From a virus: a DNA stretch of 64,000 nucleotides. Each line of letters opens with the position of its first letter. Position 1 is the first letter of the stretch. Both the position numbers and the translations under genes were made by a program. The notes below the pieces were generated by a model. The model was given only the letters and a program-made list of their open reading frames with translations. It did no database searches and had not been told where the DNA came from. Of this stretch, positions 5,738 through 49,100 are shown piece by piece. The stretch lies in the IMG/VR virus record IMGVR_UViG_3300009183_000083, positions 5,810-69,809 of that record; one strand, given 5' to 3'.

Positions 5738-6151
5738 CCAATCTCTAATTTGACAAACCTCTAATCTACACCCAACCCCAATATGCACCCCAAATGCCAC
5801 CCACTAGTACCCACTTGTCTTTCCCATGTGAAGAACAAATCGAATAACTAGGGGGGTATTAGGGGGGATTGGGTTAGAGTTTGTAAAGAAAAATCGCAAT
5901 AAAGTTATAATTAGATGTAACTTGTTTGGATTTAGGTTGTTAAGAGAGTGAATTATTAACTACTAACAAGTGATGATAACCCGAAGGGTTACCTGTTAGC
6001 AGATAAAGTTCAAAAAGCCCGCCTCCTTTAGGCCCAGGCATGATTGATAAATGTAAAAAGCAAGGGGTTTATTAAGTGGAATAAGGAAGGGAGTTAACCC
6101 CCACCCCTAAGCCCACCGCTGGGTGACGGTGAGCTATGGGGTAGTGTTAAT

Positions 6152-6328
6152 CTAGGTTGGTTTGTAATGTTTAAAGAGATGATCGTAAGACACCTCTATA
6201 AACTTTCCGAATGGGAATCGAATGGTAGCCTTGTCTCGGCTAAGGTGGGCAATGTACCCCGATCCCCCAGCAATTCTGGAGACACGATATCCTACTTTGA
6301 TGTTTCTCCATTGTTTTGGAGTGATCAT
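6152..6328 (-). CDS. small SH3/KOW-like protein (58 aa)
   Basis: translated by hand: MITPKQWRNIKVGYRV...G.G.I...ATIRF; ATGA overlap with the upstream gene. Confidence 0.55.
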   Translation of the reverse strand: MITPKQWRNIKVGYRVSRIAGGSGYIAHLSRDKATIRFPFGKFIEVSYDHLFKHYKPT

Positions 6329-6483
6329 GGAAAGAAAGTCCTTTCAATAGTCGTGCCATCTCCTCGCATTCCTGTGTCAGCCCACGCCATAAGGCGCAGA
6401 GCTGCGATTATGGCTGCTGCAAACAAGCAGAGCCATATGATTTTGAGCATAACCTGCCACAGTTCATACATAACTTCTTTCAT
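6325..6483 (-). CDS. small membrane protein (52 aa)
   Basis: translated by hand: MKEVMYELWQVMLKIIWLCLFAAAIIAALRLMAW... Confidence 0.55.
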   Translation of the reverse strand: MKEVMYELWQVMLKIIWLCLFAAAIIAALRLMAWADTGMRGDGTTIERTFFP

Positions 6484-6527
6484 ATCTTAAAAGCCAGCGT
6501 TGGTTCACGGCTGGTGCGTGTCATCAG

Positions 6528-6585
6528 AATCCCCGATGAGCCGGGCTAGCGCCCTGAGTTGCCCCAGAGCGCCCGGTGAGGGATT
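6528..6585 (-). repeat. bulged stem-loop, copy 1
   Basis: AATCCC-TC-[stem]-CATC-GGGGATT immediately after a stop codon. Confidence 0.6.
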
Positions 6586-6828
6586 TTATACTACCTCTAG
6601 TTCCATGTAGGACACCGCGATTTTGGTGCCTTTGGTCTTGAATGAGAAGAAGCGCTGAGTGCCATCCTCGTCGTGCTTGGCAAGCATCGGGCAAGCCTTA
6701 ATGTTAAGGTCAGGCTCCCAGCCTTCCAGTTTCAGTTCTTTCCATACGGCCGCCGCCGCGTCGCGCCCCATGTGTTTGGTGATGGACTTAGTGGCGATGT
6801 GCTTGGCGATTGTGTTTTTTGTTGTCAT
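6586..6828 (-). CDS. hypothetical early protein
   Basis: 80-aa ORF with ACACAACT-ATG leader. Confidence 0.7.
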   Translation of the reverse strand: MTTKNTIAKHIATKSITKHMGRDAAAAVWKELKLEGWEPDLNIKACPMLAKHDEDGTQRFFSFKTKGTKIAVSYMELEVV

Positions 6829-6880
6829 AGTTGTGTATTCTAAATCGGGCGGTGTAGCCCTTGTTCATCATCGTGCAGCG

Positions 6881-6940
6881 ATTTCCCCGATGGGCTCAGG
6901 ACTTACGCATGGTCTAGCCATGCTGCCCGAGCGAGGGATT
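6881..6940 (-). repeat. bulged stem-loop, copy 2
   Basis: AATCCC-TC-GCTCGG...CTGAGC-CCATC-GGGGAAAT immediately after a stop codon. Confidence 0.6.
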
Positions 6941-6941
6941 A

Positions 6942-7151
6942 CTAACCTTTGGCGAATGTCAGCATGTAGCTCCCATCTGCCTGCATCTTCTCCTCTTGGA
7001 GAAGAGATCCAACCGCAATGAATCCTTTGGCTTCATCTGGCAAGCTGTAGCAAGGATTACCATTCCAAACAGGCATTGTCCTGCCATCGTCCAGAACAAT
7101 GCCATAAACGTGTTCATCAAAATCTTTGATAATGTTTACAATCTTAGTCAT
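6942..7151 (-). CDS. hypothetical early protein (start reassigned to MTKIV)
   Basis: the upstream part of the 6942-7256 ORF is structured RNA; the ATG at 7151 has an A/C-rich leader. Confidence 0.65.
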   Translation of the reverse strand: MTKIVNIIKDFDEHVYGIVLDDGRTMPVWNGNPCYSLPDEAKGFIAVGSLLQEEKMQADGSYMLTFAKG

Positions 7152-7257
7152 ATTCGTGTGTCTTTCTATTCGTCTGCACTCCCCGGCAGGATTCTGGGTT
7201 GGGCAGCAAGAGCGCTGCCAAAGCAGTTGGTTTAGTCCAACTAAAGACACAGACATG

Positions 7258-7316
7258 AAACACCACTCTGCATTTACACGGGCTTGTGACCGTCATTGGC
7301 TGCATTAGTGGCTGTT
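7258..7316 (-). ncRNA. twister self-cleaving ribozyme (type P1)
   Basis: CAC-UAA-UGCA-GCC-AAU-GACGG-UCAC-AA-GCC-CGU-GUAAA-UGCA-GAGUG-GUG aligns with the twister consensus: P1 CAC/GUG, P2 UGCA/UGCA, pseudoknot CAC/GUG; predicted cut between U7307 and A7306. Confidence 0.9.
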
Positions 7317-7342
7317 GATGACCCGGTCAGCTCCGGGGCGAA

Positions 7343-7618
7343 TCAAGACCAGTCGCGCACCGACTCGATGAGCCAGTCTTGATGCTCAGCAAGTTGTTCT
7401 TGCTGTTGTTGCGGAGTCAAGGGATCTTCGTCCTCCATATCGCTATAGTACTCCTCTTGGAGCATCCAGCCGACAAGGAAGGCTTCGAAGGATGCCTCTG
7501 GCATCCCTGTGAATGAGAAGCGCCAGCGCGCTATCGCAACCTTGTGCTCCCATGCCCAATCAGCATAGAAGCACAAAGCTTTCTCACACACAGCGAATGC
7601 ATTTGGATACGTTGTCAT
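7343..7618 (-). CDS. hypothetical early protein
   Basis: 91-aa ORF with acidic C-terminus. Confidence 0.65.
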   Translation of the reverse strand: MTTYPNAFAVCEKALCFYADWAWEHKVAIARWRFSFTGMPEASFEAFLVGWMLQEEYYSDMEDEDPLTPQQQQEQLAEHQDWLIESVRDWS

Positions 7619-7734
7619 GGTCGTGTGCGGGCTTTGACCCGTCTCGCCCTGATTGTTACGCCGGGATCACGCTCGATAGCCTGTCCTTTCGGGGCAGTCG
7701 CCATCTGAGGACCATGACTGATCCAATGTCCTAT

Positions 7735-7775
7735 CTTCCCAGACAGGGCTCAGCGACACGCCGAGCGGTGGGAAG
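7735..7775 (-). repeat. bulged stem-loop, copy 3
   Basis: CTTCCCA-CC-GCTCGGCG...CGCTGAGC-CCTGTC-TGGGAAG. Confidence 0.5.
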
Positions 7776-7786
7776 CCCCTAAGGGG

Positions 7787-7812
7787 AAGCAGTTTAACGA
7801 CCTACTCAGGTC
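7787..7812 (-). ncRNA. small H-type pseudoknot
   Basis: GACC-TGAGTA-GGTC-GTTAAAC-TGCTT; loop GAGTA can pair with TGCTT. Confidence 0.5.
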
Positions 7813-7818
7813 TTTTGA

Positions 7819-8094
7819 TTAACTGTAACGAGCGTTAATCTCTTCAATCCGCTTGCGGCCAGCGGCGAGGAACTCCTCCTCACGCTCAATAGCTGCCCAA
7901 GCCTCAACCTCAAGACGCTTGACATCTTCTGGTCTACTACCTAGCCAACCACATTCAATGGCGTGGTCTAGGCGGCGAGCAGCAGCGTGCGCTTCTTCAC
8001 GAAGCCTGCGCTCCTTCTCTGCTACGCCACTGTTGGCGTAACGACGTGACGCAAGGCTGTCTCCTCCGTATGCGTATCCTGATAGTCTTCTCAT
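7819..8094 (-). CDS. first early gene, hypothetical charged helical protein
   Basis: 91-aa ORF with an ACAC-rich leader. Confidence 0.65.
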   Translation of the reverse strand: MRRLSGYAYGGDSLASRRYANSGVAEKERRLREEAHAAARRLDHAIECGWLGSRPEDVKRLEVEAWAAIEREEEFLAAGRKRIEEINARYS

Positions 8095-8483
8095 AGTAGT
8101 GTGTGTTGTGTGTTGTTCAAGCAGTGTGCTGCGTAGGTGCAGGCACAGTGCAAGGTGGTATAGATCACACTATCAATGAGTACGTACAGGCTGCTGAGGG
8201 GCCACGGGTGGGTCACCTGCTCCCCTACTGCTGCACACCTAGCTGGAGTACAGTATGGGTTCCTCGTGGAATTATTTTTATTTCTTGAAAATAAAACAAA
8301 ACAAAATAAAAAAATAAAAAACAAATAAGATGAGAGGTAAGGTATCGAACAAGAGTCGTATTTTGTGTTGTGGATTATTTTGGGATGGTCATTGTGTTGA
8401 GGTTTGTCCGAGATGTGGGAGGGATTTGTGGGGGATAGGAGTTAAAGGATTGAGTGTTGACAATAAAGTGTTGGGAGTATTAA

Positions 8484-9221
8484 GTGAAGGGCATGGGAAG
8501 CAAAGTGGATTTGACGAAGGTGGCGCCGTGGCCTCCTAAGCCAGTATTGGCACAAAATGTTTCGATGATTAAGAAGCGGTTGTCTGGTAAGGGGAATGCG
8601 CCTGACGCTGGTTCAGAGGAGGAGGATTCGGGGTTTGTTGCGCAGGCGCATGAGAAGGTGAATGATGTTGATTCTATTGTTTCTAATGCTGGGGCAGCGG
8701 CGTCGATTGCTGACAGGGCATTGAAGTATGCGTCGCCTAAGTTAGGGGCTGTTGCAAGTGGGCTAGGAAAGGGGAACCAAGCTCTTTCTTATGCCCGTGC
8801 TGCTATTGATGCTGGTCGGCTATTAACAGACCAAGATCATTGGGAGAACACGCAGGAGGAGGGTGCTGATGGCAGTGTCTCTCCTATTGAGTTTGGAATG
8901 AATGCTGTAGATATAGGACAGCTTCCCACTACGGTTGTTCGCGCTACTGGTATGGTTGGAGGGATCATGGATGCCAACCGAGAGGCTGGAGAGGCATTAG
9001 CGATGAAAGACCAACAAGATAAGTTGATGGGTATTTATCAAAAGAAGAAAGAACGTAATCCATTGACGTATGGTGCAGGAGGCTCATCTGATGTTCCTCC
9101 TGTTGATCCAGAGAGAGAGCGTCAAATTCAAGCTGCAAAAGAAGCCTTTGAGGATCAAAACCTTGAAGGGATGACAATGGAATTGGTTCGTAACATTATC
9201 CGTGGTAATCAGCCAAGTTAA
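8484..9221 (+). CDS. hypothetical protein upstream of terminase
   Basis: 245-aa ORF abutting terL; TTGACA at 8457. Confidence 0.7.
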   Translation: MKGMGSKVDLTKVAPWPPKPVLAQNVSMIKKRLSGKGNAPDAGSEEEDSGFVAQAHEKVNDVDSIVSNAGAAASIADRALKYASPKLGAVASGLGKGNQALSYARAAIDAGRLLTDQDHWENTQEEGADGSVSPIEFGMNAVDIGQLPTTVVRATGMVGGIMDANREAGEALAMKDQQDKLMGIYQKKKERNPLTYGAGGSSDVPPVDPERERQIQAAKEAFEDQNLEGMTMELVRNIIRGNQPS

Positions 9222-9226
9222 GATTT

Positions 9227-11011
9227 ATGATTAAAGATAAAGGGTTTATTGTTGGTGGGATGGAGTTCCCGCATGGAGCAAGCGAGTTGTCTTGTAATTT
9301 GTGGATGTTTTCTCAGGGAGTGAGAAAGGGGGATGGGAGTGAAGTTATGGCAAACGATCGTTTTGTTTTTTTAAAGAAAGCAATTGATTTAGCGTTTAAT
9401 TGTGAAGGAAGTATTCGCACTGTTGTATGGAATCCTTGGACAGAGTTGATATTAAAAGAAATGATTGGGGGGTGGAAAAAGAAGCGGTTTGTTGGTTTTG
9501 CTGGATGTTCTTCTTCAGGCAAGTCTGATGCAGTGGCTCTTTATGGATTGATGGAGTATTGGGCTCGTCCTACCGAGACATTCTTTTTGGTGATGTCTAC
9601 GACTAAGTTGAGTGCTCGTATGCGTGTTTGGAAGTCAATTACGCAGTTGTGGGGGCAAGCAGAAACTCAAGGTTGTCCAGGAAAGTTAATTGATTCAGAC
9701 GGCTACATTAAAGGAATTAATGCTAATGGTAAGTTGTGGCGCAACTCTGGTATTGTCTTGATGGCTGCTGGAACGCAAGATGCAGAGCAGGCTTGCAAGG
9801 ACTTGCTAGGAATTAAAAACCCTAATGTTATTATTGGAGCAGACGAGTTTAATGAGCTTGGAGAGGGAATCCTTAAGACAGCTTATGAAAATATGACCTC
9901 AAATGATAGGTTGACGTTTGCAGGTATGGCTAACCCCGATAAGCTTACTGACCCTTTTGCAAATCTGTGTGAACCAATTAATGGCTGGAAGTCAGTCAAT
10001 GAAAATGAGGAACGTTGGGAGACTAAATATGGGGCGTGTGTGAGACTGAATGCTGAGAAAAGCCCAAGAATTATGTTTCCTGATTTAGTGGATCATAATG
10101 AAAAACACTTGTATCATTGGCAACCAGACCAAGAGTATTGTGATCGGATTGCTGAGAATCGAGGCGGCATTAAAAGCCGAGGTTACTATCGTTTTGTAAA
10201 AGCATTCTGGTGTCCTGATGGGTCGACTAATTCAATTTATTCAGAAGTTGAGTTTATGAACTCAGGAGCATTGGACCAAGATGAACCAGCTTGGGATTGC
10301 GCCCCTATTGTTGTGAGTTCGTTGGACCCCTCATTCAGTCGTGGAGGAGATAGAAGTTTTTGTTGCTTGATGAAAGCTGGATTAGTAAATGGCAAAACTC
10401 ACGCTCATGTTTGTTATGAAACAAGCATTGATGAAGACATGCAGGACAAGAGTGTTGCGCTTACGCATCAAATAGTAAGAGGTTGGAAGACGTTGAGTGA
10501 GGAATGGGGAGTTAAGCCTTTCCGAGCCATTCATGACAATACGGGAGCAGGAACACCGTTTGGTCATGTTGTTGATATGGAATGGTCAACCTCTGTACAA
10601 AAAATAAACTTCCAAGGAAAGAGTTCTGGAAGGACAGTTATATTTAGAAATGAAGACTGTGATTACTTTAATAAAAACTCTGAATTATGGATTCAGCCAA
10701 AAGAATTTTTTCGTGAGGGACAGATTAGTGGCTTATCAAAAGAAACAATGTCCGAGTTAGTTGATCGAGAGTATCACAAAAAAGAAGGTCGGACAATGCG
10801 GGTGGAGGGCAAAGATGAGGCTAAGAAGCGTTTAAAAAAAAGTCCCGATAGAGCTGACGCTTTCTTGCTTTGCATTGAAAAACTCATAACAATAAATATG
10901 TTGAAGAGTGAAGAAGTTAAAAAAGTTTCCAAAACAATAAACAATGGATGGCTTGATTTAGTTCAAAAATTTGGAATAAATACAAATGTTGGAAAAAAAT
11001 TTAAGAGATAG
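9227..11011 (+). CDS. terL: terminase large subunit
   Basis: Walker A AGCSSSGKS, Walker B IIGADEF, GMANP, RNase H-like SLDPSF..GGD and SPDRADA. Confidence 0.92.
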   Translation: MIKDKGFIVGGMEFPHGASELSCNLWMFSQGVRKGDGSEVMANDRFVFLKKAIDLAFNCEGSIRTVVWNPWTELILKEMIGGWKKKRFVGFAGCSSSGKSDAVALYGLMEYWARPTETFFLVMSTTKLSARMRVWKSITQLWGQAETQGCPGKLIDSDGYIKGINANGKLWRNSGIVLMAAGTQDAEQACKDLLGIKNPNVIIGADEFNELGEGILKTAYENMTSNDRLTFAGMANPDKLTDPFANLCEPINGWKSVNENEERWETKYGACVRLNAEKSPRIMFPDLVDHNEKHLYHWQPDQEYCDRIAENRGGIKSRGYYRFVKAFWCPDGSTNSIYSEVEFMNSGALDQDEPAWDCAPIVVSSLDPSFSRGGDRSFCCLMKAGLVNGKTHAHVCYETSIDEDMQDKSVALTHQIVRGWKTLSEEWGVKPFRAIHDNTGAGTPFGHVVDMEWSTSVQKINFQGKSSGRTVIFRNEDCDYFNKNSELWIQPKEFFREGQISGLSKETMSELVDREYHKKEGRTMRVEGKDEAKKRLKKSPDRADAFLLCIEKLITINMLKSEEVKKVSKTINNGWLDLVQKFGINTNVGKKFKR

Positions 11012-37177: not shown

Positions 37178-40100
37178 ATGCTTATTGATAAATCAAGTTA
37201 TTCTTCGGATAACAAATTACCAGAAGAAGAAGAAGAAGTACATCCATTAGCCTCTGAACTTGGAAGGCATTATCTTTTATCAGAAGATTACGTATATGGT
37301 GACGATAAAAAACTTGTAGCCAATCAGGCTTTTATGCACTGGGCTTCTGATCAAGAAGCTGAAAAAAAAGGAACAGTTAAAGCAACTGGTTATGAAAAAA
37401 ACGATGCTGGTGTTTTAGAAAAGGTTGAAAAAGATTTTCCTATGTTTAATGGGGAAAGTTTGACTTCTAAAGGACAAGAAGAATACGAGAAGGTTAAAAG
37501 GTATTTTGATGACGCTGCTTCTATGCCAAATGGAGGAGTGTCTCGTAATCCAACAACTCGCAAGTGGGAAGTGGATAGTCGCCTTGAGTCTGTTTTTACA
37601 GAAAAACAAGAAAAGCGTCCTGATCCATTTAAGGACATGTCGGAGTTTATTGATGAACAACTTAAAGTTACTAAGGAAGGTGATAGTCCCGCTTACACTT
37701 ACGAAGACTTTACTAACTTTTCTAACGCTGTAGTAAAGAACGGCGAAGCTCACCTTGATCCAAATAACAAGGAAATGAAAGCTCGCTTTTTACAAGAAGT
37801 GAATCGTCGTACATTTGATTCTTCTTTAATGGATGAAGCTGAAATTGGTCAGAAAGTAGCTGGAGCTTATGTAATCAACCCTAAAAATTACAGTGAAGTA
37901 GACAAAGTTGAAAGTTGGATTGAGGGCTTAACAGATCTAAGTGCTTCTGATAAGAAGATGATGCTTATTGATTATCGTTCTAAAATTGAAGCAAATGTTG
38001 GTACTTTAGTTAATGATTTTGCCGCTGCTGATGCTGGAGTGATTGGCGGTATTTTTAGTTCTCCTCTTCGTGATGAGTTTAATGAATACATGAGCAAGCC
38101 AGGAGCTAGTGGTTATCAATTTCTTAAAGAGAACAAAGAGCGAATGAGCAAAGACTCATATGGCGTTACGTCTGAAATTGCTACTAAATTTCGAGACTCA
38201 GTAATGGCTACCGGAACTGGTTTTTTATGGGCGGCGAGCGCTGGCAACTACACCAGCCCTGCGGAAGCGTGGGGTGGCTTGGCCGAGGATTCGTCCAAAG
38301 CATATTCAAATGGCAAGGCGTTCGAACTTTTTGGAGTCGACATCAACCGCCGTGATTTAACCGAGCTAACCGGACAGGTCGGGTCGTTTATTGCAATGGG
38401 TGGAATGGGCGCTTTAGCAGGTAAAGGATTGACCGCAATTGGTGCTCAAGGAGCTTCACGTTATGCTGTTAATGAAGCCGGGATTTTGCTTTCTACTGTA
38501 GCTAAAACAGAAGCAGCCGCTGCTGCTGGCACTAGAACTTTTGGACAAAAAACTTTAGCCGGACTAAAAGCGGCTGGGACTGATCCAGAAATGTATCTTG
38601 GATCGCTTCAAGCTGCTGGAACGTCTTTTGGAAAAACTTTTAATTCAACACTTGAAGAAACAGGAAGTCGTGAAGAAGCACTTAAGGCAGCAAACATTGC
38701 TGCAATATCAGATGGTTTTTCAGCTTTTATTGCAACAGGTGTGATGAACCGTTTTGCTCCAGGCATGGGCAAAGTGCTAGGAATGGGAGATGGCGAAGTA
38801 GGTGGTGGTATTGTTCAAGCATTTAAAAATAAAGCTTTAGCTAAAGAGTCGATGGAGCAAGTCCAGACATTGCTTAACAACCTTGATGGAAAAATTGGAG
38901 AACCGCTTCGCAAGCAATTTGCTAATGACATTGGAAGTGTGATGGGTGCTTCTGCACGTTCTCTTGGTTTAAAAGGAATTGGTATTTTTGGAAATATGGG
39001 AGCTGAAGCAATTGAAGAAGCTTCAGATGAAATTATTTCTGATGTTATTAGTTCGATGCTTGATGATTCTAAAACTTGGAACGAAGAAGTTTGGCAAAAC
39101 ATTGGGACCAAGTGGAAAGAATATGTTAAGGCGGGGGTGCTTGGTGCAATTGGTGGAGCAATGGGTGATGCTACATCAACAGTACTTAGTCCAAAAGAAA
39201 CATTTGGAACTAGCGAGGGACTTAAACTTCAAACTCAAGAATGGGACAGAATTAAAACTAATGTAAAAAAGTTTGACTCTATGGAGAATTTTGTTTTCCC
39301 AGCTCCTATTCAAGATGCAAAGAATCTTGCTGAGTATATTGCAATGCCTGATGACAAAGTTTCAATAGAACAAAAGTCAGATGCGTTGTTAGCGGCAGTT
39401 CGTAATAAGACTTTATTTACAAGCATGGTTAACGCCAATGTGCCTGTAGCCGATCCTAGTAGTGTTCCTGAGCCAAGTGTCACAGTTGACGCTGAAGGCG
39501 CACCTATAGCTAGCGACGCAGCAAAACAAGCCACTTCAGCTAGTGTGTTTGCTACAGTTATGTCAAACTCAGGTTTAGTTTTACCTGAGGGTCGTGTTTG
39601 GCGTGATGACATTTCATTTGCCCCAACTGAAGGAAGTTCTCCACTAAGTATATCTAATAATGTTAAAATCACACCATTGTCTACTGTAGCTGATGGAGAC
39701 AGAACAGATCATGTTACTTATGTAGCGGCAAAAAAAGAAACAACAAATCCAAATGGATCAGTTACCACTGAGTATTTAAGCGCAAAAGAAGCTGCTGCTG
39801 AATTAGGAACAGCAATGTCTAGTCTCAGTTCAAAGAATAGAACTAAAGCAAATAATTTAGTTAACAACTTTCTCAGCAAATCAACTAATACTAACTATAA
39901 TGAACAATGGTCAACTGAAGTTCAAAAAGAACAAGGAGCTTCTTCTTCTGAACCTAATTTAACAACAGAATCTAAACTGTCATCAAGCATAGAAGGTGTA
40001 CCACTAGATGTTGGGTCGGAAGTAAAATGGGAAAGCTCAAATGGTAATGGTCCGCGCAGTGGTAAAATTATATCTATTGACGCAGCAAGTGGTATGGCTG

Positions 40101-43100
40101 TTGTGCAAATGCCAGATGGAAAAGCTCGTGACGTTCCCGTTAAGGCCTTTAGTCAGGCTGAAACTCCAACTGTAGCGGAGGGCGCTCTTATTTCCTCTCA
40201 AAACCAATCTCCTGGAATAAAAAAACAACAAACAATAATAAAAAATGAACAACAAGAAAATGATGCCAATGATGGGAGCAATGATGAAGCCATCAGCAAA
40301 GCCGAAAGCGATGCCGAAAAAGATGGCGAAATCAATGCCGAAAAAGATGGCGAAGAAAAAGATGTGTTAAGTGAATCAGGAGCTGCTGGGGAAACATCTC
40401 CAGCAGCTTCTTCTAGTAGCGTTAATAATCGCATTAAAATCAGAAATCGGCTCAAAGGAGTTAAAAACACAGAGCCTCTTGTTAACAAAGAAAACGATCG
40501 CTTTTACAAATCAGACGGAGGAATTTATGTTTCTAAAGGAAAAGATCCCGTAACCTATGTTACCGACGATGAAATTGATGCTGAGATTGAAAGACAGGGT
40601 GGCAATCTAAATAATGCCCTTAAAGTGATCAACGATAAGATCACAAAAATGGGCGGTAATATTAACGCTTATGCTTTAGACATACAAGAGAAGACAGCGG
40701 AAAATGCCACTTCATTAACTTATCAAGACGTAACTTACGTTGCTGACCCTAGTCTTATTCAAGATGGAACTGATGCAATTGGCGGCAAGTGGATGATGAT
40801 AACTAACGAGAAGACTGGTGTTGTGTCTTATACTTATCGTCCACCTACTGGAAGCGCGTTATCATTAGGAATTGGTGAAGTTGTAGCAATTGATGGAAAA
40901 CCTGACGAATTCTTAGTAGTAAAACGAGTATTCAATGGTCGATGGGATTTTGAAAAAAAGGATGCTAAAGACGCAGCTGGAGACATTATCAATGATAAAG
41001 GCTTAACTCAAGAAGGAAACAAATTTACTCGTTCTCGTTTATCTTTAATTTCCAAAGAATTTGAAAAACATTTTGAGTCAATTGTTAATGGAAAAATTAA
41101 TCCAGAACAAATGGAGAAATTATTTCTTAAAGTATTGAAAATTGTTTCTCCTAAAAAAGATTTTGTTGTTGTCAATAAAGACATGTCTGAAGAAAAAGGT
41201 TATGTTTACGCAAGCCGAAACAATGAGAATCCAGATGATTTTGGTTCAATCAATGTAGACTATAAGAAGCTGTCTGAGCAACTTTCTCAACTTTATCGTA
41301 CAGCTAATACTAAAAATAAATTTTCTAATGCTCTTCTTGGAATGGATGCAGCAAGAGTTGTTTCTGCTATTATTGATGAAGAACTCACTCACTTAATTGG
41401 ATTTAAGATTTTTGACGATGCTGAACTTTTTTCGTTTTACAGATCTATTCTTGATCTTCCAAAAAACAAAGATGGTACTGAGCATCCATTCAAACAAATT
41501 CTTTTAGAAACTTTAACTGAGCGGTTTCCTCAAAGACAAGGTTTGCCTGCGTTAAGCCCCGAGATTGATGGGTTTGATGAAGGTACAGTAGGTGATGCTG
41601 ATAACATGGATGAGATTGTCCTGACAGTGGCAACAGAAATGATTCGTAAGCTTCATCAGATGGCAACACGCGGAACTACCACAGAACGCGATACAGAGCT
41701 TTCTAGACAGCTTCAGGCTGCGATTTATGGTGACGCTGCTGCTAAGTCCCAAGAAACTGCTGAATCAAAGGTGAAGGGGCCTTTAAACGTCATTGGTCAA
41801 ATAATTAGGCGTTACGCTGAACGTGTTCGCAATATCCTTTGGATGAAGTGGCAACAAGGGATGCTACCACGAAACACTCGTGATATGCTTACAAGATTAA
41901 ACAAAGCTTATCAAAACGAAGGGATTCAAGGTGATGTAGACTTTGGTTATGACGCTGCGATGGAAGAATCAGAGCGCCGAGTAGAACAGTATGAGAAATC
42001 TTTTATTGATGAAACTAGCAAAATTGCAAGGATTTCTAATCCTGCAATGATGAAGCTTCGATCAATAAGCAGGGAGTTTGGTTACATGTCTCTTGGTGAA
42101 TCCCTAGTAGTTGACAAAGACACAATGACGCTTTCTCTTCATCCAAAAATCATGCAACACATTAAGGATAATAACTTAATGGACTTGGATTTGGTAAATA
42201 AAGTTTTGTTTGAATTAAATGGTGAGGGTGTCAGCACTCCATCTTATCAAAAAGCAGTTACTGTAGCTTTTCTAAAGCAGCAAGTTATGGATTTAAAGCG
42301 TGATAAACTTACGTTTAATCCTTCTGATTTGTTTGACTCAATGAAAAATGATGAGGGGTTATTTGGTAATCAAGCAAAAGATGCTAAGTCTGCAAAGCAT
42401 TCTGTTTTATGGAGACAAATTCTTGAAGGCATTCCAGAAAACAACTTTGAAGCATCACTAAAAGAAGTTGTCTCACCATTAGTTTCTGAGCGAAACGAGA
42501 TGTGGAAAGAACGTGATCGTTTGCATGGATTAGTTATTCAAGAAGCATTTAAGGCAGTTAACGCAATTGATACAGATTTGGGTGGGTTCTCTTCAATTAA
42601 AGCGTTAATTAAATGGGGTCGCTTGGCTCAAGTCAAACGACCTGGAAAAAGAGAATTAGTTGATATTTTTGATGATTTTACATTTCCTAGCGAGCAATGG
42701 TTTGAATATCAATCTCCTGCAGATAAGTTAATTAATGCAACTCCAGAAGAATCAGCGCAGGTGCGTCGTGATTTCAAGCAATCCATACTTCAATCGCTGG
42801 CTCTTTCTCTTCCTTCAATTACCGGAGAAAGTCATGTTAAATTTTTAGAGTCTATTGGTGGTCCTGTTTCAGAAGCTTTAGCCGAACTAAAGAGTACGGA
42901 AAAATCTTTAGAAACTATAACTCAATATATTGAAACAATTAAGTATTATAATAAATTCAATCACTTTATTCCAGGAATGGACCCTAAGGATAGGGATCAG
43001 CTTAAGACTGCAATGTCTGCAGAACGTAACGCGCGAAGCCCGAAAAAAAGTGGGCTACCTATAAATGATGAAAATAATGTTCTTCAGCGTCAGCAACCGC

Positions 43101-46100
43101 TTTCACCTGAAGCGCAAGCTGCTTCGTTTTCTATTTATCAAGAATACATTGAGTTTTCTCGCGCTGTAGATGACTACAACAAATCTATTCAATTTGTAAA
43201 GAACCGAGCATTGGGTGAGTTTGGTACACGTTCTGAGGAGTTTGGAATGAATTATGCAGACATGAATAAAGCAACTGGCAACAACGCTACGCTTGAGTTT
43301 AAAAGCATGACTGACGAACTTCAGCCTGCTAGTACGCCTAATGATGTATTTAGCGGAAATATGATTCCAGAAGGAATGAAATATGGTTACGGGTCAATAG
43401 CTCGTTTTGATGATAATGGAGAACCACTTTCAGAAGAAGAACAGGCATGGAACGCTGGACTAGAAGTTTATCGTTACACAATGCAATCAAACGCTGATTT
43501 TGTTGGCAAAAATTTATTTTTAAACTACTGGGTTAATCTTCAACTTGGGAAAGTTGTTTTGTCTGGTGTTGCTAGTGACTACGAAAAAACAGGAGGATTC
43601 TTATTTAAAAGACAAGTTAACGAAATTGAAATGGTAGATTACGAAACTGCTGATCAAGCGTTTCCTGACTTACCAACTGAAGAGCTTGGAGAAGCAAAGA
43701 TGAAACTTAAGTCTGGCGGCGCAGAAGACATTCTTAATGTTATGCGTTTTTTCCAAAAGGTTAACGTATGGGCAAGCGGAATTAAAAGCAAGTATCAAGG
43801 AGTTACGACAGATGAAGTTGGTGGAGAGCAAGGTTTTGCTGGTCGCATGATTCCAATGCTTAATGAATTATTTGGAAAGATGGAAAGCATGATTGATCCA
43901 ATTAGTGGAGAGTCATTTATTGGACTTACTGAAGGATTGGATTTTGATTTAAAAGCACACGTTGAAGACGTAATAAAGTTTTTAAGTCGTCATTACGAGA
44001 TGAAGGATTTTTACACAAGATCTGGTAGTTTTGTTATGCCTACAGAAGAAGTAAAAGACTTTATGGACTTCTTTAAAATGAAGGACGGCAAGTTAATTAA
44101 AATTTCATCACGTAAAGACAATCAAATTGCTAATGATTTTTCTGGTGTGCTTTTAAATTCAGGCAAAAAACTTAAGGTTTCATTACGCAGCGCTACCCAA
44201 GGTGTTAAATTAATGAAACGTTCTTTTAAAGCGTTTAGTAACCCTCGCTGGAAGCGTAACGTTGAACAAGAAGGTAGTCGTTATCAACGTGATCCTGCAT
44301 ATGAACCAGACAATAAAGCTATTCTAAAGCTCGGAGAAATGACGGCAGATGCCCGAATGAGAAATCAGATGAAGTGGAATTTAAAATATTTTGAAACTAG
44401 CCGTAATTACATTTTTGGTTCTAATTGGGCATTTGAATTTTACAATGATATTCAACGAAGCAGTTATGGAGAAGGACGAGAGCCTTATGTAAAAATCAAA
44501 GCTTCAAGCATAAGTGCTAATAGAGATATAACATTAAATGAAATGTTTGATCCTAATCGGTGGACCCTTGAAAGACCTAAAGGATTTATTCCTAATCAAC
44601 AAGATTACAACGATTCTTTATATTTTGGTGTCGGAAAAGAAACAAGAAGAGTAACAGATACTAATCTTTATTTAAATCCAGAAAGCGAAGTAATTAATCC
44701 AAACGAGTATTCCGGAAGCGAAGATGATCCTCGTGTTGCTAATTCTAGCATGTCTACTACAGACCCTACGGTTAGGGGGTACACTCAAACTTATAACGAA
44801 GGTCGTGCTTCAACACCACAGGAAACTGCTCAAAGGGCTTTTGGACGTTCTGCAGTTTCCCGGTCGATTAAAATAACTCAAGCGGCTATGTTCATAGGCA
44901 GCAATGGTCCAAGCGGACGTTCATCGTCAGACGCAGATCAATTTTATTTTGACATGATTCGTCTTGGAAGAGACAACGATTGGTTTACATCAGAAAACAT
45001 TATTGAAGAACGCAATCGTTCAAGTAATAACGTGTTTTTTGCTGATTTGACAAATGATGAAATTGATAGCATGGATAATCGTCAGATTATGACGGTTTTT
45101 CGTCAATCTATGACTGACAGTCTTGTTCGTCGTGGATTAAAAGGATTGTTTCCAGCTTTAGATTACACAAATGATGAAACTCATAACAAGATTTACGATG
45201 CGTTTCTTGATGAATACGGAAACAAAACAGACAAAAACGGTAAGTATTTTTTTATTGATTCAGAAAAGTTTATTTTAGATTTGCTTGAGTTTAAGATGAA
45301 GTTTGAACGGGCAGTTGTAGAAGAAAACCGTGTTAAGAATCAAGATGACATTGCTATAGCTTACGATTTAATTTCTAAAGGAAATCAATTTGTATCTCCT
45401 AATGAGTCTGAGCGCATGGCTAAAGCCATCAAGGAGTCAATGACGAGTGAAAAATTTAATATTTTTGATACTCGTCTTGGTACTGGGCTTGGAACAGGAA
45501 ATGCAATTGTGGATCATTTAATTGATACGCTTCCAGGCAGAACACTAATTGTTGAAATTCGTTCTGATGTTGCAGATGCAAACGATTTAAAGGGACTTAA
45601 CATTCAAGTATTTAAAGGCAATCAAAAACAAGGTGAGGCAATCACTCCGAATGTTGTTTTTATGCCATTAAATCAAAATGGTCCATATCTTTCCAAAGAC
45701 AAAGCAAGAAGTTTAATTAGCCAGTTACTCAGCATATCGGCTGAAAACAACTTAGTAGTTAAAAAAACGCTTCTTGATCTTTCTGCTAAGATTGATGCTG
45801 AATTAAAGCCAGTTCAGTTGGCTGATGGTCTTGTAATTAGCTATCGTTCTAAACCAAAAAAGAAAACGTTTTTTCCTAAAAATCGTTACATTTTTGATGC
45901 TTTTGACAAAATGGCGGCAATCCGATCTGATTTTGACATTGTTTCAAAAAGCTTATCTTTTCCTGGCGTTGATCCAAACTTGGTAGACGCAATTATTATG
46001 GTTTCTGCATTTCTTACTAACGATGATGCTAAAACATTTCTTGATCAATCTTATAAAGGATTTGAAGTTCGCGTTTCAAGCAATTTGCCGCAGCAAATAC

Positions 46101-49100
46101 AAGATGATCTACTTCATTCAATTTGGATGATTCGTCAAAGCAAACTTTATGAAACTAATCGTTTTGGAGATGAGACAGAAAACCTTGAATCAAACGATAA
46201 TAACAACGAAGAAAATGAAATTGATGATGAGGAAGAGTTTCCTGATCCAGACAAAGATGTAGACAATTCTGACCCATCTCAAGAACTTGATGATTCACTT
46301 GAAAAAAGTGAAGAAGCTAATAATTTTTTTGCTGACAATGTTATTCCTGAACTTGAAAAAAAGATAGCTGAGATTGAAGATGGCAAATTAGAAATTGAAA
46401 TGGTAATTGCTTCTGCTGATTTTGGTGTAAACGATGCAAGCGATATACTGCTTTATAATGCTCTTGCTTCAATTGTTGAGGCTGGAATAAAACGTGAAAG
46501 TTTGGAAGTTGTTAAAGGTCTTCAGGAAAGATATTCTAACAAGGGCCGCAAGGCTAGAAGCACTCGTGATATTCTGGCTAATCCTAAATTAGGTGGACAG
46601 TCAGGTAATCTTCGCGCTGATCTTGCTGCTCCAGTAGTTAAATCTAATGCAAAAGAGGATGAAGAGGTTGGGTTTTCACAAACAAAAATGAGTTTTGCTG
46701 TTAAAACTTATATTGGAGAAGCAATTAATATGGCTCGTCCAAACGTAAAAAATAGAACCGTTTTGAATTCTGAATTTGCTTCCACTAGGATTAATAATAT
46801 AAACGCTGCTTTAATTTACAGTTTAAGCAGTGTTGAAAATCAAGTTGAAGAACAACTTACTAGGTCTTTTAAATCAGCTCTTGGGGCTGTTGCAAAAATA
46901 AATTTTAGAAGCAATACAAAAAACGGAACTTTGGATTCTGTTAAGATTTCTAGCCAAAAAATTGAAGTTGTTGTTAATGATGAGCTTCTTTCTGAATTAG
47001 GAAGAAACTTGCCAGCAGCTGAATTAGAAGTTGCTTTGAGTCAGACTCGAAAAGCAGTTGAAGATTTATTTGTAAGCAAAGATAGATTTGAAACTATTTT
47101 AGCTTCTTTAAAAGAAGATCGCGCTAATGCAGTAGTTCTTAATTCAAAAAATGTTGCTGAATACTGGGCTAATACACCTACATCAATTCCTGATGCAACA
47201 GGAAAACGTAAAGGCAAAAAAGTTTCAAATGACGAGTTAAGCAACGCAATGAGCAAAGAGAATGTTGAATTAGCAAGAGCTAAGTCTGCAGCTCTTGTTG
47301 ATAAGTTGCGTGTAATTGATCGCCAAATTAATCGCGTCCAAGATGATCTACTTGCAGTAAAACGTGAGATTTCTAAAATTGAAAATTATCGCGGTCAAAC
47401 TGTTTTAGGTCGTTCACATTTTAAAGCTAATATTGGATTAGACATTCTTAAAAATGAAGAAGGCACACAGATTTCTGCTGCGGTAGAAGAGGCTACACGT
47501 AAAGTTGGATTTAATATTATTACTACTCCGTTTTTTGGCTCAATTGACGAACGTGCTCGCTGGATGGACACATCTTCTGATAACGCAATAGCTGATGTTG
47601 AAATCAAAGAACTTCGAAAAGAACATTACATTAAAGAACAGGCAATGATTTCTGCTTTAACGCAGTTAGCAACTGATCACATTGATGATGCTTATAAGAT
47701 TTCTAGAAACACAGCGGATAATTTTATGGATTTTAATCCGCTTAAAGCAATTCGCCAAGCAATTGAGATTTCCAACGTTGAATCAATTGTTTTGAAAGAT
47801 CAAATGAAGATGGCAAGAACTGAAGCTGAAAGTGCCATGATGAGAGGGTTGGAGGCTGACGATATTGCAATGTTGACTGACCCCGCTTCAACTAATTTAA
47901 TGGTGATGACGTTTGCTGATCAAGCAAAACTTACTCCACAAGAAAAAACAGGCAAAACAATTTTAACACCTAATCAATACACTAGATTACGTATTTTAAA
48001 CATGCCTAAGAGCATGACAGAAAGAAGTAAGAAGATTGGAGCGCTATTTAGTCAGGAAGGCCAAAACGCAATCTTAATGCCTACTACAGTGAAGGAGCAG
48101 CTTATGAGGGCATTTCCTATGACTGTAACAAAAAGGAACGTAAACAGCACTATAACACAGATAGTAGCTGAAGCAGCGGCTTTGTCTCAGAATGTCTCAC
48201 TTGATTCAATGCGTCATTCCGAACTGGAAGCCAAGCATAACGATGGAACGATTACTCCTGAGGAGACAGAAACGGCTCAAAAACTTGTATATGAGGCAGC
48301 TGATAAAAAGGGGTATGACCAAAAAGGACATAGAGCAGGAGTGTATAAAAATGGAATTCCACTCCTACCAAGCACAACTGGTGGTTTGGGGTCTGCTTAT
48401 TATGCTATTTTGGGAGGTTCTCTCGAGGAAATTAAAGAGTTTGGTGGGGAGATTTTGGGCCCTGACCGAAACAACCCGTCGATTAAAACAATAGCTGGTG
48501 AAGTGAGAATAAATCTTGGTGATAAACCTTTATTTGTTAAGCACCCCAGTGAGGTGTCAGAATGGGCTGATAAAAATAACCTTATTCCATCTTTTTATGC
48601 TTGGTTGAATTACCAACAAGCAGTCAATTCAGTTTATGATACCATCTATAAGGGTCAAAATAAAACAGATTGGAATGCGCCTACACGTCGTATAGACGTT
48701 AATCCAAACAGTCTTGAAGCCAGAAGAGCAGGACGCTTATACATAGAAACTGCTGAAAGCAAAAAAGAATACCGAGATGCCCTAATTAAAGATGGGTATT
48801 CAGAAAAGGACATTGACCGAATGAGGCTGAATGAAGACACGGTAGGAACTTCTGATGCTGCTAAGTTGAATTCTTTCTTGTTTGATCAAGGTCATGTTAC
48901 TGCAATCGTAGCAGATTGGTCTGGAGCTGCAAAAAATAAGAGAGCTTCGGGTGATGGACGTATGTTCACCGAGGTTGCATTAGCAAATCCAGATCAAATC
49001 AAATCCGCAGAACCCTTCACTGGAGTTCCTTTGGATCAAAGGTTTAACCCACAAAGTCATAGCATTGCTTACGCTGCCAATCTTGATTCACGCCCGATTT

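What the first reader, a model, noticed from the sequence alone, without database searches (positions are those of the whole stretch)
7258..7316. Twister ribozyme between two early phage genes
Seen: the minus strand reads CACUAAUGCAGCCAAUGACGGUCACAAGCCCGUGUAAAUGCAGAGUGGUG. Known: this has the type-P1 twister core (U^AA, GCC, GGUC.., AAGCC, GAG) with self-consistent P1, P2, P4 and pseudoknot pairings. It lies on the same strand as the flanking genes, about 30 nt after the stop of 7343-7618. Inference: it cuts the polycistronic early mRNA, leaving a 5'-OH downstream transcript and separating expression of the first two genes from the rest.
Basis: partly seen in the sequence, partly recalled or inferred. 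Interest (0 to 1): 0.85.

Follow-up and report, generated by a model that had tools for sequence, protein, structure and literature searches.

The report
Minimal twister ribozyme in phage operon
A genuine-looking, stripped-down twister self-cutting RNA sits between two small genes of an uncultured phage, directly in front of a conserved folded leader RNA that related phages place behind other kinds of self-cutting RNA, a clean new example of a known phage habit.

Summary
The minus strand 7311..7260 matches Rfam twister-P1 over the full model (56.2 bits, E 6.4e-10 for the whole window). It is the only Rfam match in the window. It falls below the curated cut-off (67.2) because the optional P3 stem is absent.

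Thirty-four distinct P3-less twisters from viral metagenome contigs, this one included, show strong covariation in P1, P4 and one pseudoknot pair.

The predicted cut is U7307/A7306. It lies 36 nt after the stop of the 91-aa gene and just after a conserved GC hairpin.

New context:
- Eight nt after the ribozyme starts a ~95-nt conserved multibranch leader (7251..7157), which ends 5 nt before an AUG at 7151.
- In relatives the same leader follows a twister-P5 or a by-eye type II hammerhead, and precedes unrelated genes.
- The phage has almost no Shine-Dalgarno sites.

Most likely the ribozyme gives the downstream cistron its own 5'-OH end. Cleavage, timing ("early") and effect are untested.

Ribozymes punctuating phage operons are in print (Perreault 2011). 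This scan has noted many such cases on other DNA (390 notes). It is a new member of a known kind.

The parts
7343..7618 (-). Upstream ORF, 91 aa, no family assignment; its stop codon is at 7345-7343
   Evidence: ORF list. No PHROG or Pfam hit. No relative found in viral contigs. The ORF body is not conserved with relative L117, although both flanking RNA blocks are.
7322..7337 (-). GC hairpin (5-bp stem, 6-nt loop) ending 10 nt before the ribozyme. It would lie close to the 3' end of the upstream cleavage product.
   Evidence: Predicted in the fold of the 45 nt upstream. Identical in L117, within a 77-81-nt block of 90% identity that also holds the twister. Strong upstream hairpins are common before P3-less twisters: 13 of 34 have MFE <= -11 kcal/mol, against 60 of 680 random 45-mers of the same loci.
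7260..7311 (-). P3-less type-P1 twister ribozyme. Pairings: P1 7310-7308 with 7263-7261; P2 7304-7301 with 7272-7269; P4 7293-7291 with 7280-7278; pseudoknot T1 7288-7286 with 7266-7264; pseudoknot T2 7300-7299 with 7283-7282.
   Evidence: RF03160, 56.2 bits, E 6.4e-10. Pair counts on 34 P3-less twisters. Orthologue in L117.
7306..7307 (-). Predicted scissile bond between U7307 and A7306
   Evidence: Position of the conserved U-A-A junction in the model alignment. The chemistry is inferred from the family (PMC5408937, section 8 read) and not tested.
7157..7251 (-). Conserved multibranch leader RNA: a 9-bp closing stem (7251-7243 with 7165-7157), hairpin 1 (7242-7237 with 7230-7225), hairpin 2 (7219-7214 with 7207-7202) and a 36-nt invariant joining region
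   Evidence: MFE -37.9 kcal/mol, z -3.24. 88.5% nt identity to L117, with compensatory changes in both hairpins. The same element is found in 4 metagenome contigs. No Rfam family matches.
6942..7151 (-). Downstream ORF, 69 aa from AUG 7151 (the mechanical ORF 6942..7256 is probably over-extended)
   Evidence: In L117, L135 and L136 the frame running through the leader is closed before the AUG. The leader before 7151 is A-rich and G-poor, like the other starts of this phage, whereas the bases before 7256 are not. No Pfam hit.

Best explanation
**What it is.** The site is an active-type, minimal (P3-less) type-P1 twister self-cleaving ribozyme. It is transcribed within the leftward operon of small genes that starts in the divergent gap next to the probable terminase gene.

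**Predicted cut (inferred from the family).** During or just after transcription it cuts between U7307 and A7306.
- The upstream RNA (two 91-aa genes) would end in a 2',3'-cyclic phosphate, 14 nt after a conserved GC hairpin.
- The downstream RNA would begin with a 5'-OH and the compact ribozyme body. It continues after 8 nt into a conserved ~95-nt multibranch leader, whose closing stem ends 5 nt before the AUG (7151) of a 69-aa gene.

**What the cut is for (inferred).** It gives the downstream cistron its own defined, structured 5' end and uncouples it from the upstream message. Relatives use a different ribozyme in front of the same leader, so the cut itself is what is selected, not the twister fold.

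**Status of each step.**
- Shown here: family assignment, class covariation, orthology, and the conserved leader with swapped ribozymes.
- Inferred: cleavage in vivo, the end chemistry in this RNA, and any effect on stability or translation.
For: **Family assignment**
- Full-length RF03160 match, 56.2 bits, E 6.4e-10 in 64 kb. It is the only Rfam match.
- Every upper-case consensus position is present, except one loop C that is replaced by A. Its partner G is replaced by U, so the pair is kept.

**Class covariation**
- On 34 distinct P3-less twisters, 88.9% of cells pair, against 73.1% in shuffles and 21-48% with slid partners.
- The three inner P1 pairs have 16-18 sequences changed on both sides, and the outer P4 pair has 10.
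- The variable T1 pair reads A-U 32, C-G 1, U-A 1, with none unpaired.
- P2 pairing was my selection rule, so it does not count.

**Orthologue**
- Relative L117 carries a P3-less twister (42.9 bits) inside a 90%-identical block.
- It has compensatory changes in P1 (C-G to G-C) and P4 (A-U to G-C).

**Leader with swapped ribozymes**
- The same leader (85.7-89.2% nt identity to the three other versions) is preceded at 8-10 nt by three different ribozymes:
  - this twister-P1 in the window;
  - a Twister-P5 (61 bits, gathering score 37.6) in L117, identical in L137;
  - a textbook type II hammerhead core in L135 and in L136, identical in L138.
- The four downstream ORFs and the upstream ORFs are unrelated, with best E 0.15.

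**Position before start codons**
- 46 of 94 distinct pattern-matched viral twisters have an ATG-initiated ORF of at least 40 aa starting 10-39 nt after the core. The control is 76 of 565 random positions.

**Published precedent**
- P1, P2 and P4 are the essential stems; P0, P3 and P5 are optional; P1 is dispensable for cleavage (PMC5408937, section 8 and passages).
- Ribozymes flank genes in prophages and are read as processing long phage transcripts. A hammerhead variant lies 13 nt before an early halovirus gene, and the transcript's 5' end maps to the cut (PMC3088659, passages).
Against: - The match is below Rfam's gathering score (56.2 against 67.2).
- P1 is only 3 pairs before a mismatch.
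- The MFE fold prefers a shifted 5-pair helix, 7311-7307 with 7267-7263. This would occupy the 3' strand of T1 and pair the cleavage-site U, so some of the RNA may misfold.
- The 76-nt fold is not unusually stable (z -1.40).
- No cleavage or expression data exist.
- Nothing here shows that transcription crosses the site or that the genes are early.
- In E. coli reporters, twister cleavage of a 5' UTR did not by itself change mRNA stability or protein level (PMC5052635, discussion passage). A cut therefore need not have a large effect.
- The hammerheads in L135 and L136 are called by eye and by a pattern only. Rfam models did not report them at E<=0.01 or at E<=10.
- Only four distinct versions of the leader are known, all close relatives.
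Confidence: 0.7

Rival explanations
1. The ribozyme and the ~95-nt element are one device whose product is the folded RNA itself, either a regulatory or ligand- or protein-binding RNA or a stand-alone small RNA. The twister exists to free that RNA's 5' side so that it folds correctly, rather than to segment the mRNA as such.
For: - The element is more conserved (88.5% to L117) than the neighbouring coding sequence (69%), and has a 36-nt invariant joining region.
- Its stems covary.
- The spacing to the ribozyme is constant at 8-10 nt, whatever the ribozyme class.
- Its closing stem sequesters the A/C-rich tract just before the AUG. In the other genes of this phage such tracts serve as A-rich, G-poor leaders.
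Against: - There is no terminator or second ribozyme to give it a 3' end, and an AUG follows within 2-6 nt in all four versions.
- No known riboswitch or sRNA family matches.
- Other twisters of relatives lie about 10 nt before an AUG with no such element.
Confidence: 0.15
2. The cut serves to destabilise RNA, in the manner of glmS. The 5'-OH downstream fragment, or the unprotected upstream fragment, is degraded quickly. This limits how much or how long the distal genes of the operon are expressed.
For: The glmS precedent, where cleavage is followed by degradation by cellular RNases (PMC6765202, section 13 read). The review also raises the idea that ribozyme processing could give transcripts of different stabilities.
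Against: - Both products carry features that look protective: a conserved GC hairpin near the new 3' end, and a compact pseudoknotted ribozyme body plus a stable leader at the new 5' end.
- Placement immediately before start codons is the rule. That fits making messages better than destroying them.
Confidence: 0.08
3. The motif is an inactive relic or a chance look-alike. The conservation reflects something else, such as a DNA-level site.
For: The score is under the curated threshold. P1 is short and a competing helix exists.
Against: - E 6.4e-10, and a pattern expectation of 0.01 per window.
- Compensated pseudoknot change.
- Compensatory changes against the L117 orthologue.
- Seven of seven other matches of 51-52 nt, five of them from the P3-less set, in five viral records score the same way: 51.7-59.5 bits, none over the cut-off. 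The low score is therefore a property of the P3-less class, not decay of this copy.
Confidence: 0.04
4. The ribozyme is one end of an excised, possibly circularised RNA.
For: Cleavage leaves 5'-OH and 2',3'-cyclic phosphate ends. Relative L117 has three twisters within 1.5 kb.
Against: Only one ribozyme match exists in this 69.8-kb record, so nothing brackets a segment here. Perreault et al. looked for spliced or circular products of prophage hammerhead arrays and detected none (PMC3088659, passage).
Confidence: 0.03

Closest known systems
Type-P1 twister ribozymes (Rfam RF03160, clan CL00120; Roth et al. 2014 as reviewed in PMC5408937)
   Same: Order of elements; U-A scissile junction; P1, P2 and P4; both pseudoknots; all strongly conserved loop nucleotides.
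   Different: No P3, which the family definition allows as optional. The match is 52 nt long and scores below Rfam's gathering threshold, as did all 7 other matches of 51-52 nt that were tested. P1 has only 3 pairs.
Ribozyme-punctuated prophage and phage operons (Perreault et al. 2011, PMC3088659; passages read)
   Same: Self-cleaving ribozymes lie between small, variable genes on the coding strand and are read as cutting long phage transcripts into shorter messages. One hammerhead variant lies 13 nt before an early halovirus gene, and the transcript's 5' end maps to the cut.
   Different: That work concerns hammerheads. Here there is a single twister in the genome, followed by a conserved structured leader. 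In relatives a twister-P5 or a hammerhead sits in front of the same leader.
glmS ribozyme in 5' UTRs (as summarised in PMC6765202, section 13)
   Same: Cis-cleavage upstream of a coding region that leaves a 5'-OH message.
   Different: glmS needs a metabolite cofactor and its cleavage leads to decay. Nothing here indicates a ligand, and the products look protected.
Self-cleaving ribozymes in 5' UTRs of fungal and plant RNA viruses that enable translation (PMC13725137; abstract read)
   Same: Ribozymes of several classes (hammerhead, deltavirus-type, twister) used interchangeably just upstream of ORFs, with the cut itself being what matters.
   Different: Those are eukaryotic hosts, RNA genomes and cap-independent translation. 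This is a DNA phage of an unknown host in which almost no start has a Shine-Dalgarno site.

Membership tests
Twister ribozyme, type P1 | Strongly conserved nucleotides of internal loop L1 and terminal loop L4, including the A 3' of the scissile bond | tested here: met
   In the alignment to RF03160, all upper-case consensus positions match except one L4 C (A here), whose L1 partner G is U here.
Twister ribozyme, type P1 | Essential stems P1, P2 and P4, with the termini in P1 | tested here: met
   P2 has 4 pairs, P4 has 3 and P1 has 3 followed by a mismatch. Covariation of P1 and P4 across 34 P3-less examples. P1 is reported dispensable for cleavage (PMC5408937, passages).
Twister ribozyme, type P1 | Two pseudoknots (T1, T2) that bring L1, L2 and L4 together | tested here: met
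   T1 has 3 pairs and T2 has 2 in the window. Across 34 sequences T1 is 100% paired and T2 98.5%, and the only variable pair covaries (A-U 32, C-G 1, U-A 1). Four of these ten columns were fixed by my search pattern. Which bases form T1 and T2 is my recollection of the published model, supported by these counts.
Twister ribozyme, type P1 | Score at or above Rfam's gathering threshold for RF03160 (67.2 bits) | tested here: not met
   56.2 bits. The deficit is the deleted optional P3. Seven other matches of 51-52 nt in 5 viral records score 51.7-59.5 bits, and 0 of 7 are over the cut-off.
Twister ribozyme, type P1 | Site-specific self-cleavage giving 2',3'-cyclic phosphate and 5'-OH | not testable with these tools
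   No RNA run was listed for this stretch. This needs an in vitro transcription assay.
Hammerhead ribozyme, type II (the element in relatives L135 and L136, not in the window) | Catalytic core (C3-A9, G12-A14, A15.1-U16.1, H17) with paired positions next to the core; stems I and III closed, stem II open | tested here: inconclusive
   By direct reading, all core positions and the three core-adjacent pairs are present. A core pattern matches once in L136 against 0.00 expected. Rfam hammerhead models gave no match at E<=0.01 or at E<=10.

The most novel reading that the evidence does not exclude
**The cassette reading.** The twister is one interchangeable 'cutter' of a portable RNA cassette (cutter plus ~95-nt leader). 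In a phage lineage with almost no Shine-Dalgarno sites, this cassette drives expression of hypervariable small genes. The leader would be a new riboregulator or ribosome-entry element that needs a freed 5' side.

**A possible new ribozyme class.** At least one of the other highly conserved, unclassified spacer RNAs of the operon may be a new class of self-cleaving ribozyme. The main candidate is the module at 6829-6941.
- It occupies the exact position, just before the homologues of the 80-aa gene, where relatives have a twister.
- Two database homologues with identical mature protein sequence carry read-through N-termini, one of the twister kind and one of this module's kind.
Probability: 0.2. 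Interest if true: 0.8.

Novelty: new member of a known kind. Interest (0 to 1): 0.48.

Why it matters
What genomically encoded self-cleaving ribozymes do in bacteria and phages is still called largely elusive (PMC6765202, section 13).

This locus offers a compact natural experiment. One conserved leader RNA sits in front of unrelated genes, and in close relatives it is served by a twister-P1, a twister-P5 or a hammerhead at the same 8-10-nt spacing. That argues that the cut itself is the selected function. It also gives a defined construct (ribozyme, leader and AUG) in which active and dead ribozymes can be compared.

The locus also shows that the P3-less twister form is frequent in viral metagenomes. 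It was the largest single class, 39 of 116 pattern matches. This form is systematically missed at Rfam's gathering threshold, so twisters are under-annotated in phages.

Tried and rejected
**Searches for relatives**
- Related DNA in cultured phages: none for 6500-8500.
- Relatives of the 91-aa upstream protein and of the 80-aa protein alone: none beyond the window itself.
- With an alignment of the 80-aa protein, only the 3 viral loci already known were found, plus 24 other database proteins.
- Patterns from the leader and from spacer 7655-7775 found only L117 in viral contigs.
- In species genomes the only match was one chance hit in an AT-rich coding region of a MAG contig (L139). I rejected it.

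**Model of the leader**
- A covariance model of the leader (R1) found no convincing further copy in 130 held sources.
- It gave a 23-bit hit in L032. That hit overlaps the end of an ORF and has no ribozyme before it. I keep it only as a weak lead.
- A 16-bit hit in L102 (E 0.12) was not looked at.

**Other checks**
- tRNA scan of the window: 0 genes.
- Promoter and terminator scan of 6000-8700: nothing beyond chance.
- PHROG and Pfam scans of the small ORFs: no assignments.
- RNA sequencing runs: none was listed.
- I first thought that the 3' strand of P1 might double as a Shine-Dalgarno site for ATG 7256. I rejected this because only 2 of 46 starts in this phage have any SD-like 4-mer, and because the frame through the leader is closed in 3 of the 4 versions.
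- I called the 594-aa protein a terminase by position only. It has no PHROG or Pfam hit and only weak tblastn similarity to annotated large terminases (26-29% identity, best E 4e-5).
- Supplementary files of papers were not available, including Perreault 2011 Dataset S1 and the twister alignments of Roth 2014. They may already list P3-less phage twisters like this one.

Full report
**1. Observation**

ORFs 7819..8094, 7343..7618, 6942..7256 and 6586..6828 lie on the same strand.

Rfam results:
- cmscan at gathering thresholds found nothing in the window.
- With E-value reporting, RF03160 (twister-P1) matches 7311..7260 over its whole length at 56.2 bits.
- E is 2.7e-12 for 271 nt, 1.3e-11 for 1351 nt and 6.4e-10 for the full 64 kb.
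- It is the only Rfam match at E<=0.1 in the window, and the only RF03160 match in the 69,809-bp virus record of which the window is bases 5810-69809.
- The match misses the gathering score (67.2) because the 16 model positions of stem P3 are deleted and replaced by a few bases.

All upper-case consensus positions are present except one C of the P4 loop, which is A here. The G it pairs with in the pseudoknot is U here, so the pair is kept.

The 17-base core pattern occurs once in the window even with two mismatches allowed, against 0.01 expected.

**2. Is a P3-less twister a real kind?**

The review PMC5408937 (section 8 read) defines twister by three essential stems (P1, P2, P4), with P0, P3 and P5 optional. 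It also reports that P1 is dispensable for cleavage.

Of 116 matches in those loci plus the window and its duplicate L001:
- 105 had a P2 partner;
- the largest single class, 39, had a 9-nt link between P2 and the P4 loop, which means no P3.

*Covariation.* This gave 34 distinct 60-nt sequences including the window. Counting pairs for P1, P2, P4, T1 and T2 on them:
- 88.9% of cells pair, against 73.1 +/- 1.0% in shuffles and 21-48% with slid partners.
- The three inner P1 pairs have 16-18 sequences changed on both sides.
- The outer P4 pair has 10.
- The one variable T1 pair reads A-U 32, C-G 1, U-A 1, with none unpaired.

*Caveats.* P2 pairing was my selection rule. Ten loop and junction columns were fixed by the pattern. 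Several sequences are close relatives of each other. The 112 loci are simply the first that the scan returned.

*Rfam threshold.* Five records holding P3-less examples gave 7 RF03160 matches of 51-52 nt at 51.7-59.5 bits, and 0 of 7 were over the cut-off. The sub-threshold score is therefore a property of the class.

**3. Relatives of this phage**

*Finding them.* The 594-aa protein at 9227-11011 has no PHROG or Pfam hit. It shows weak similarity to annotated large terminases. It fetched 15 related viral loci at 64-97% identity.

*Ribozymes in them.*
- RF03160 matched in 4 of the 10 records searched. Most of the records are fragments.
- A wider scan of 7 loci added no other ribozyme family.
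- L117 (8.2 kb) has three twisters within 1.5 kb, on the strand opposite to the terminase-like gene:
  - a P3-less P1 form (42.9 bits);
  - a Twister-P5 (61 bits, gathering score 37.6);
  - a P1 form with both P3 and P5 (34.7 bits).

*Nucleotide blocks shared by the window and L117.*

| Window block | Identity to L117 | Content |
|---|---|---|
| 7600-7774 | 85% | spacer; about 95 nt are identical |
| 7262-7338 | 90% | GC hairpin plus twister |
| 7156-7251 | 88.5% | leader |
| 6593-6800 | 69% | coding sequence of the 80-aa gene |

The body of the 91-aa ORF (7343-7600) has no counterpart in L117. The RNA blocks are thus better conserved than the proteins between them.

*Orthologue.* The two P3-less twisters differ by compensatory changes in P1 (C-G to G-C) and in P4 (A-U to G-C).

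**4. What lies downstream**

*The fold.* The 118 nt after the ribozyme fold far better than shuffles (-37.9 kcal/mol, z -3.24). The fold has a 9-bp closing stem, two 6-bp hairpins and a long joining region.

*Other copies.*
- L117 has the same element directly after its Twister-P5.
- One metagenome scan found four more contigs.
- L137 is identical to L117, and L138 to L136, over the 264 nt shown.
- There are therefore four distinct versions: the window, L117, L135 and L136.

*Pair counts.* In the four-way alignment, 4 of 26 predicted pairs keep pairing through changes on both sides, three in hairpin 1 and one in hairpin 2. The closing stem and a 36-nt joining region do not vary.

*Hammerhead in L135 and L136.* In these two contigs the element is preceded not by a twister but by a sequence that I read as a type II hammerhead:
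- All core positions are present.
- There is a GUC cleavage triplet.
- The pairs next to the core are standard.

A core pattern matches once in L136, with 0.00 expected. Rfam's hammerhead models did not report it, so this call rests on direct reading.

*Spacing and neighbours.*
- The gap from the ribozyme's 3' end to the closing stem is 8-10 nt in all versions.
- An AUG follows the closing stem after 2-6 nt.
- The four downstream ORFs (69, 134, 54 and at least 47 aa) and the upstream ORFs are not detectably related, best E 0.15.
- The reading frame that makes the mechanical 104-aa ORF (ATG 7256) is closed inside or just after the element in L117, L135 and L136.
- The gene therefore most likely starts at 7151.

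**5. Initiation context**

Only 2 of 46 start sites in the window have an SD-like 4-mer at -20..-4. Leaders are 46.5% A and 8.4% G, against 29.7% and 21.4% genome-wide. The bases before AUG 7151 fit this pattern; those before ATG 7256 do not. The closing stem of the leader pairs the A/C-rich tract just before the AUG.

**6. General habits of viral twisters in my sample**

- Of 94 distinct instances, 46 have an ATG-ORF of at least 40 aa starting 10-39 nt after the core. The control is 76 of 565 random positions.
- Of the 34 P3-less ones, 13 have a strong hairpin in the 45 nt upstream (MFE <= -11). The control is 60 of 680 random 45-mers; Mann-Whitney p 1.3e-4, with non-independent sequences.
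- The window's hairpin, 7337..7322, is of this kind and is identical in L117.

**7. Reading**

The ribozyme most likely cuts the leftward transcript at 7307/7306.
- The upstream product would end shortly after a GC hairpin.
- The downstream product would start with the ribozyme body, followed by the leader and the 69-aa gene.

Three ribozyme types sit at one spacing in front of one leader with unrelated neighbours. I therefore infer that the cut is the selected function and that it serves the downstream unit.

This agrees with the published suggestion that ribozymes process polycistronic phage transcripts (PMC3088659 passages; PMC6765202 section 13).

Against a strong effect: twister cleavage of a 5' UTR changed little in E. 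coli reporters (PMC5052635 passage). This copy also has a short P1 and a competing 5-pair helix in the MFE fold.

'Early' is unverified. I can only say that the operon begins at the divergent gap at about 8095-8483 and consists of small unassigned ORFs in a stretch of higher G+C (0.50-0.52 against about 0.38-0.48).

**8. Known or new**

- Twisters and hammerheads near phage genes, and near each other, are in print (PMC4604425 passage; PMC3088659).
- This scan holds 390 notes with these words in at least 327 genomes. Follow-ups described ribozyme-punctuated phage operons and, once, a different ribozyme class at the same spot in relatives.
- No look-alike of this stretch was on record.
- I found no paper describing this leader in four full-text searches.
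- I file the twister as a new member of a known kind. The leader and the neighbouring spacer RNAs are the less ordinary part.

**9. A lead beyond the finding**

The 80-aa gene (6586..6828) has 24 other database homologues. Gene callers ran eight of them into the upstream RNA:
- Four begin with the translation of a twister's 3' end, as in L117.
- Four begin with the translation of the window's spacer module at about 6871-6847, as in L135.
- Two of these eight, P0006 and P0007, have identical mature sequences but one extension of each kind.

So this unclassified module (conserved with L135; no Rfam match) replaces a twister at the same position. It deserves a cleavage test.

Noticed in passing
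window 7157-7251 (-): A ~95-nt conserved multibranch RNA between the twister and AUG 7151. Its hairpins covary and it has a 36-nt invariant joining region. No Rfam family matches. In relatives it follows a twister-P5 or a hammerhead and precedes unrelated genes.
   Followed up: partly
window 6829-6941 (-): A conserved spacer RNA just before the 80-aa gene, shared with L135. In L117, L127 and L120 the same position holds a twister about 10 nt before the AUG. Database homologues P0006 and P0007 have identical mature proteins, with read-through N-termini of the twister kind and of this module's kind respectively. No Rfam match. It is a candidate for a cleavage test.
   Followed up: partly
window 7655-7775 (-): A spacer between the two 91-aa ORFs with about 95 nt identical to L117. 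By contrast, the terminase-like proteins of the two phages are only 65% identical. No Rfam match.
   Followed up: no
window 2459, 7231, 11339, 15419, 28938, 35724, 38554, 42877, 50333, 54777, 59226: The palindrome TTTAG-N5-CTAAA occurs 11 times against 0.24 expected. Several copies end 2-3 nt before a start codon, for example those before the starts at 11357, 35742 and 59223. The copy at 7231 lies inside hairpin 1 of the leader.
   Followed up: partly
window, 46 start sites: The phage has almost no Shine-Dalgarno sites (2 of 46 starts). Its leaders are A-rich and G-poor (46.5% A, 8.4% G). This suggests a host with SD-independent initiation. The host was not identified.
   Followed up: partly
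L117 2030-3484 (-): Three twisters of three architectures lie within 1.5 kb of one strand: P3-less P1, type P5, and P1 with both P3 and P5 (the last with C instead of U before the cut).
   Followed up: partly
5 IMG/VR records (G011-G015): All 7 matches of 51-52 nt to RF03160 (the P3-less length) score 51.7-59.5 bits, below Rfam's gathering score of 67.2. Two of the records carry a second copy 0.7-1.2 kb from the first.
   Followed up: partly
window 6492-6520 and L117 2312-2340; window 6484-6533 and L127 3899-3948: Short blocks of 100% (29 nt) and 92% (50 nt) identity in another spacer of the operon.
   Followed up: no
L032 2529-2637 (-): A weak match (23 bits) of the leader model, with a similar closing stem and joining motif. 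It overlaps the end of an ORF and has no ribozyme before it.
   Followed up: partly
window 37178-53500 (+): A single ORF of 5440 aa, about a quarter of the window. Not examined.
   Followed up: no
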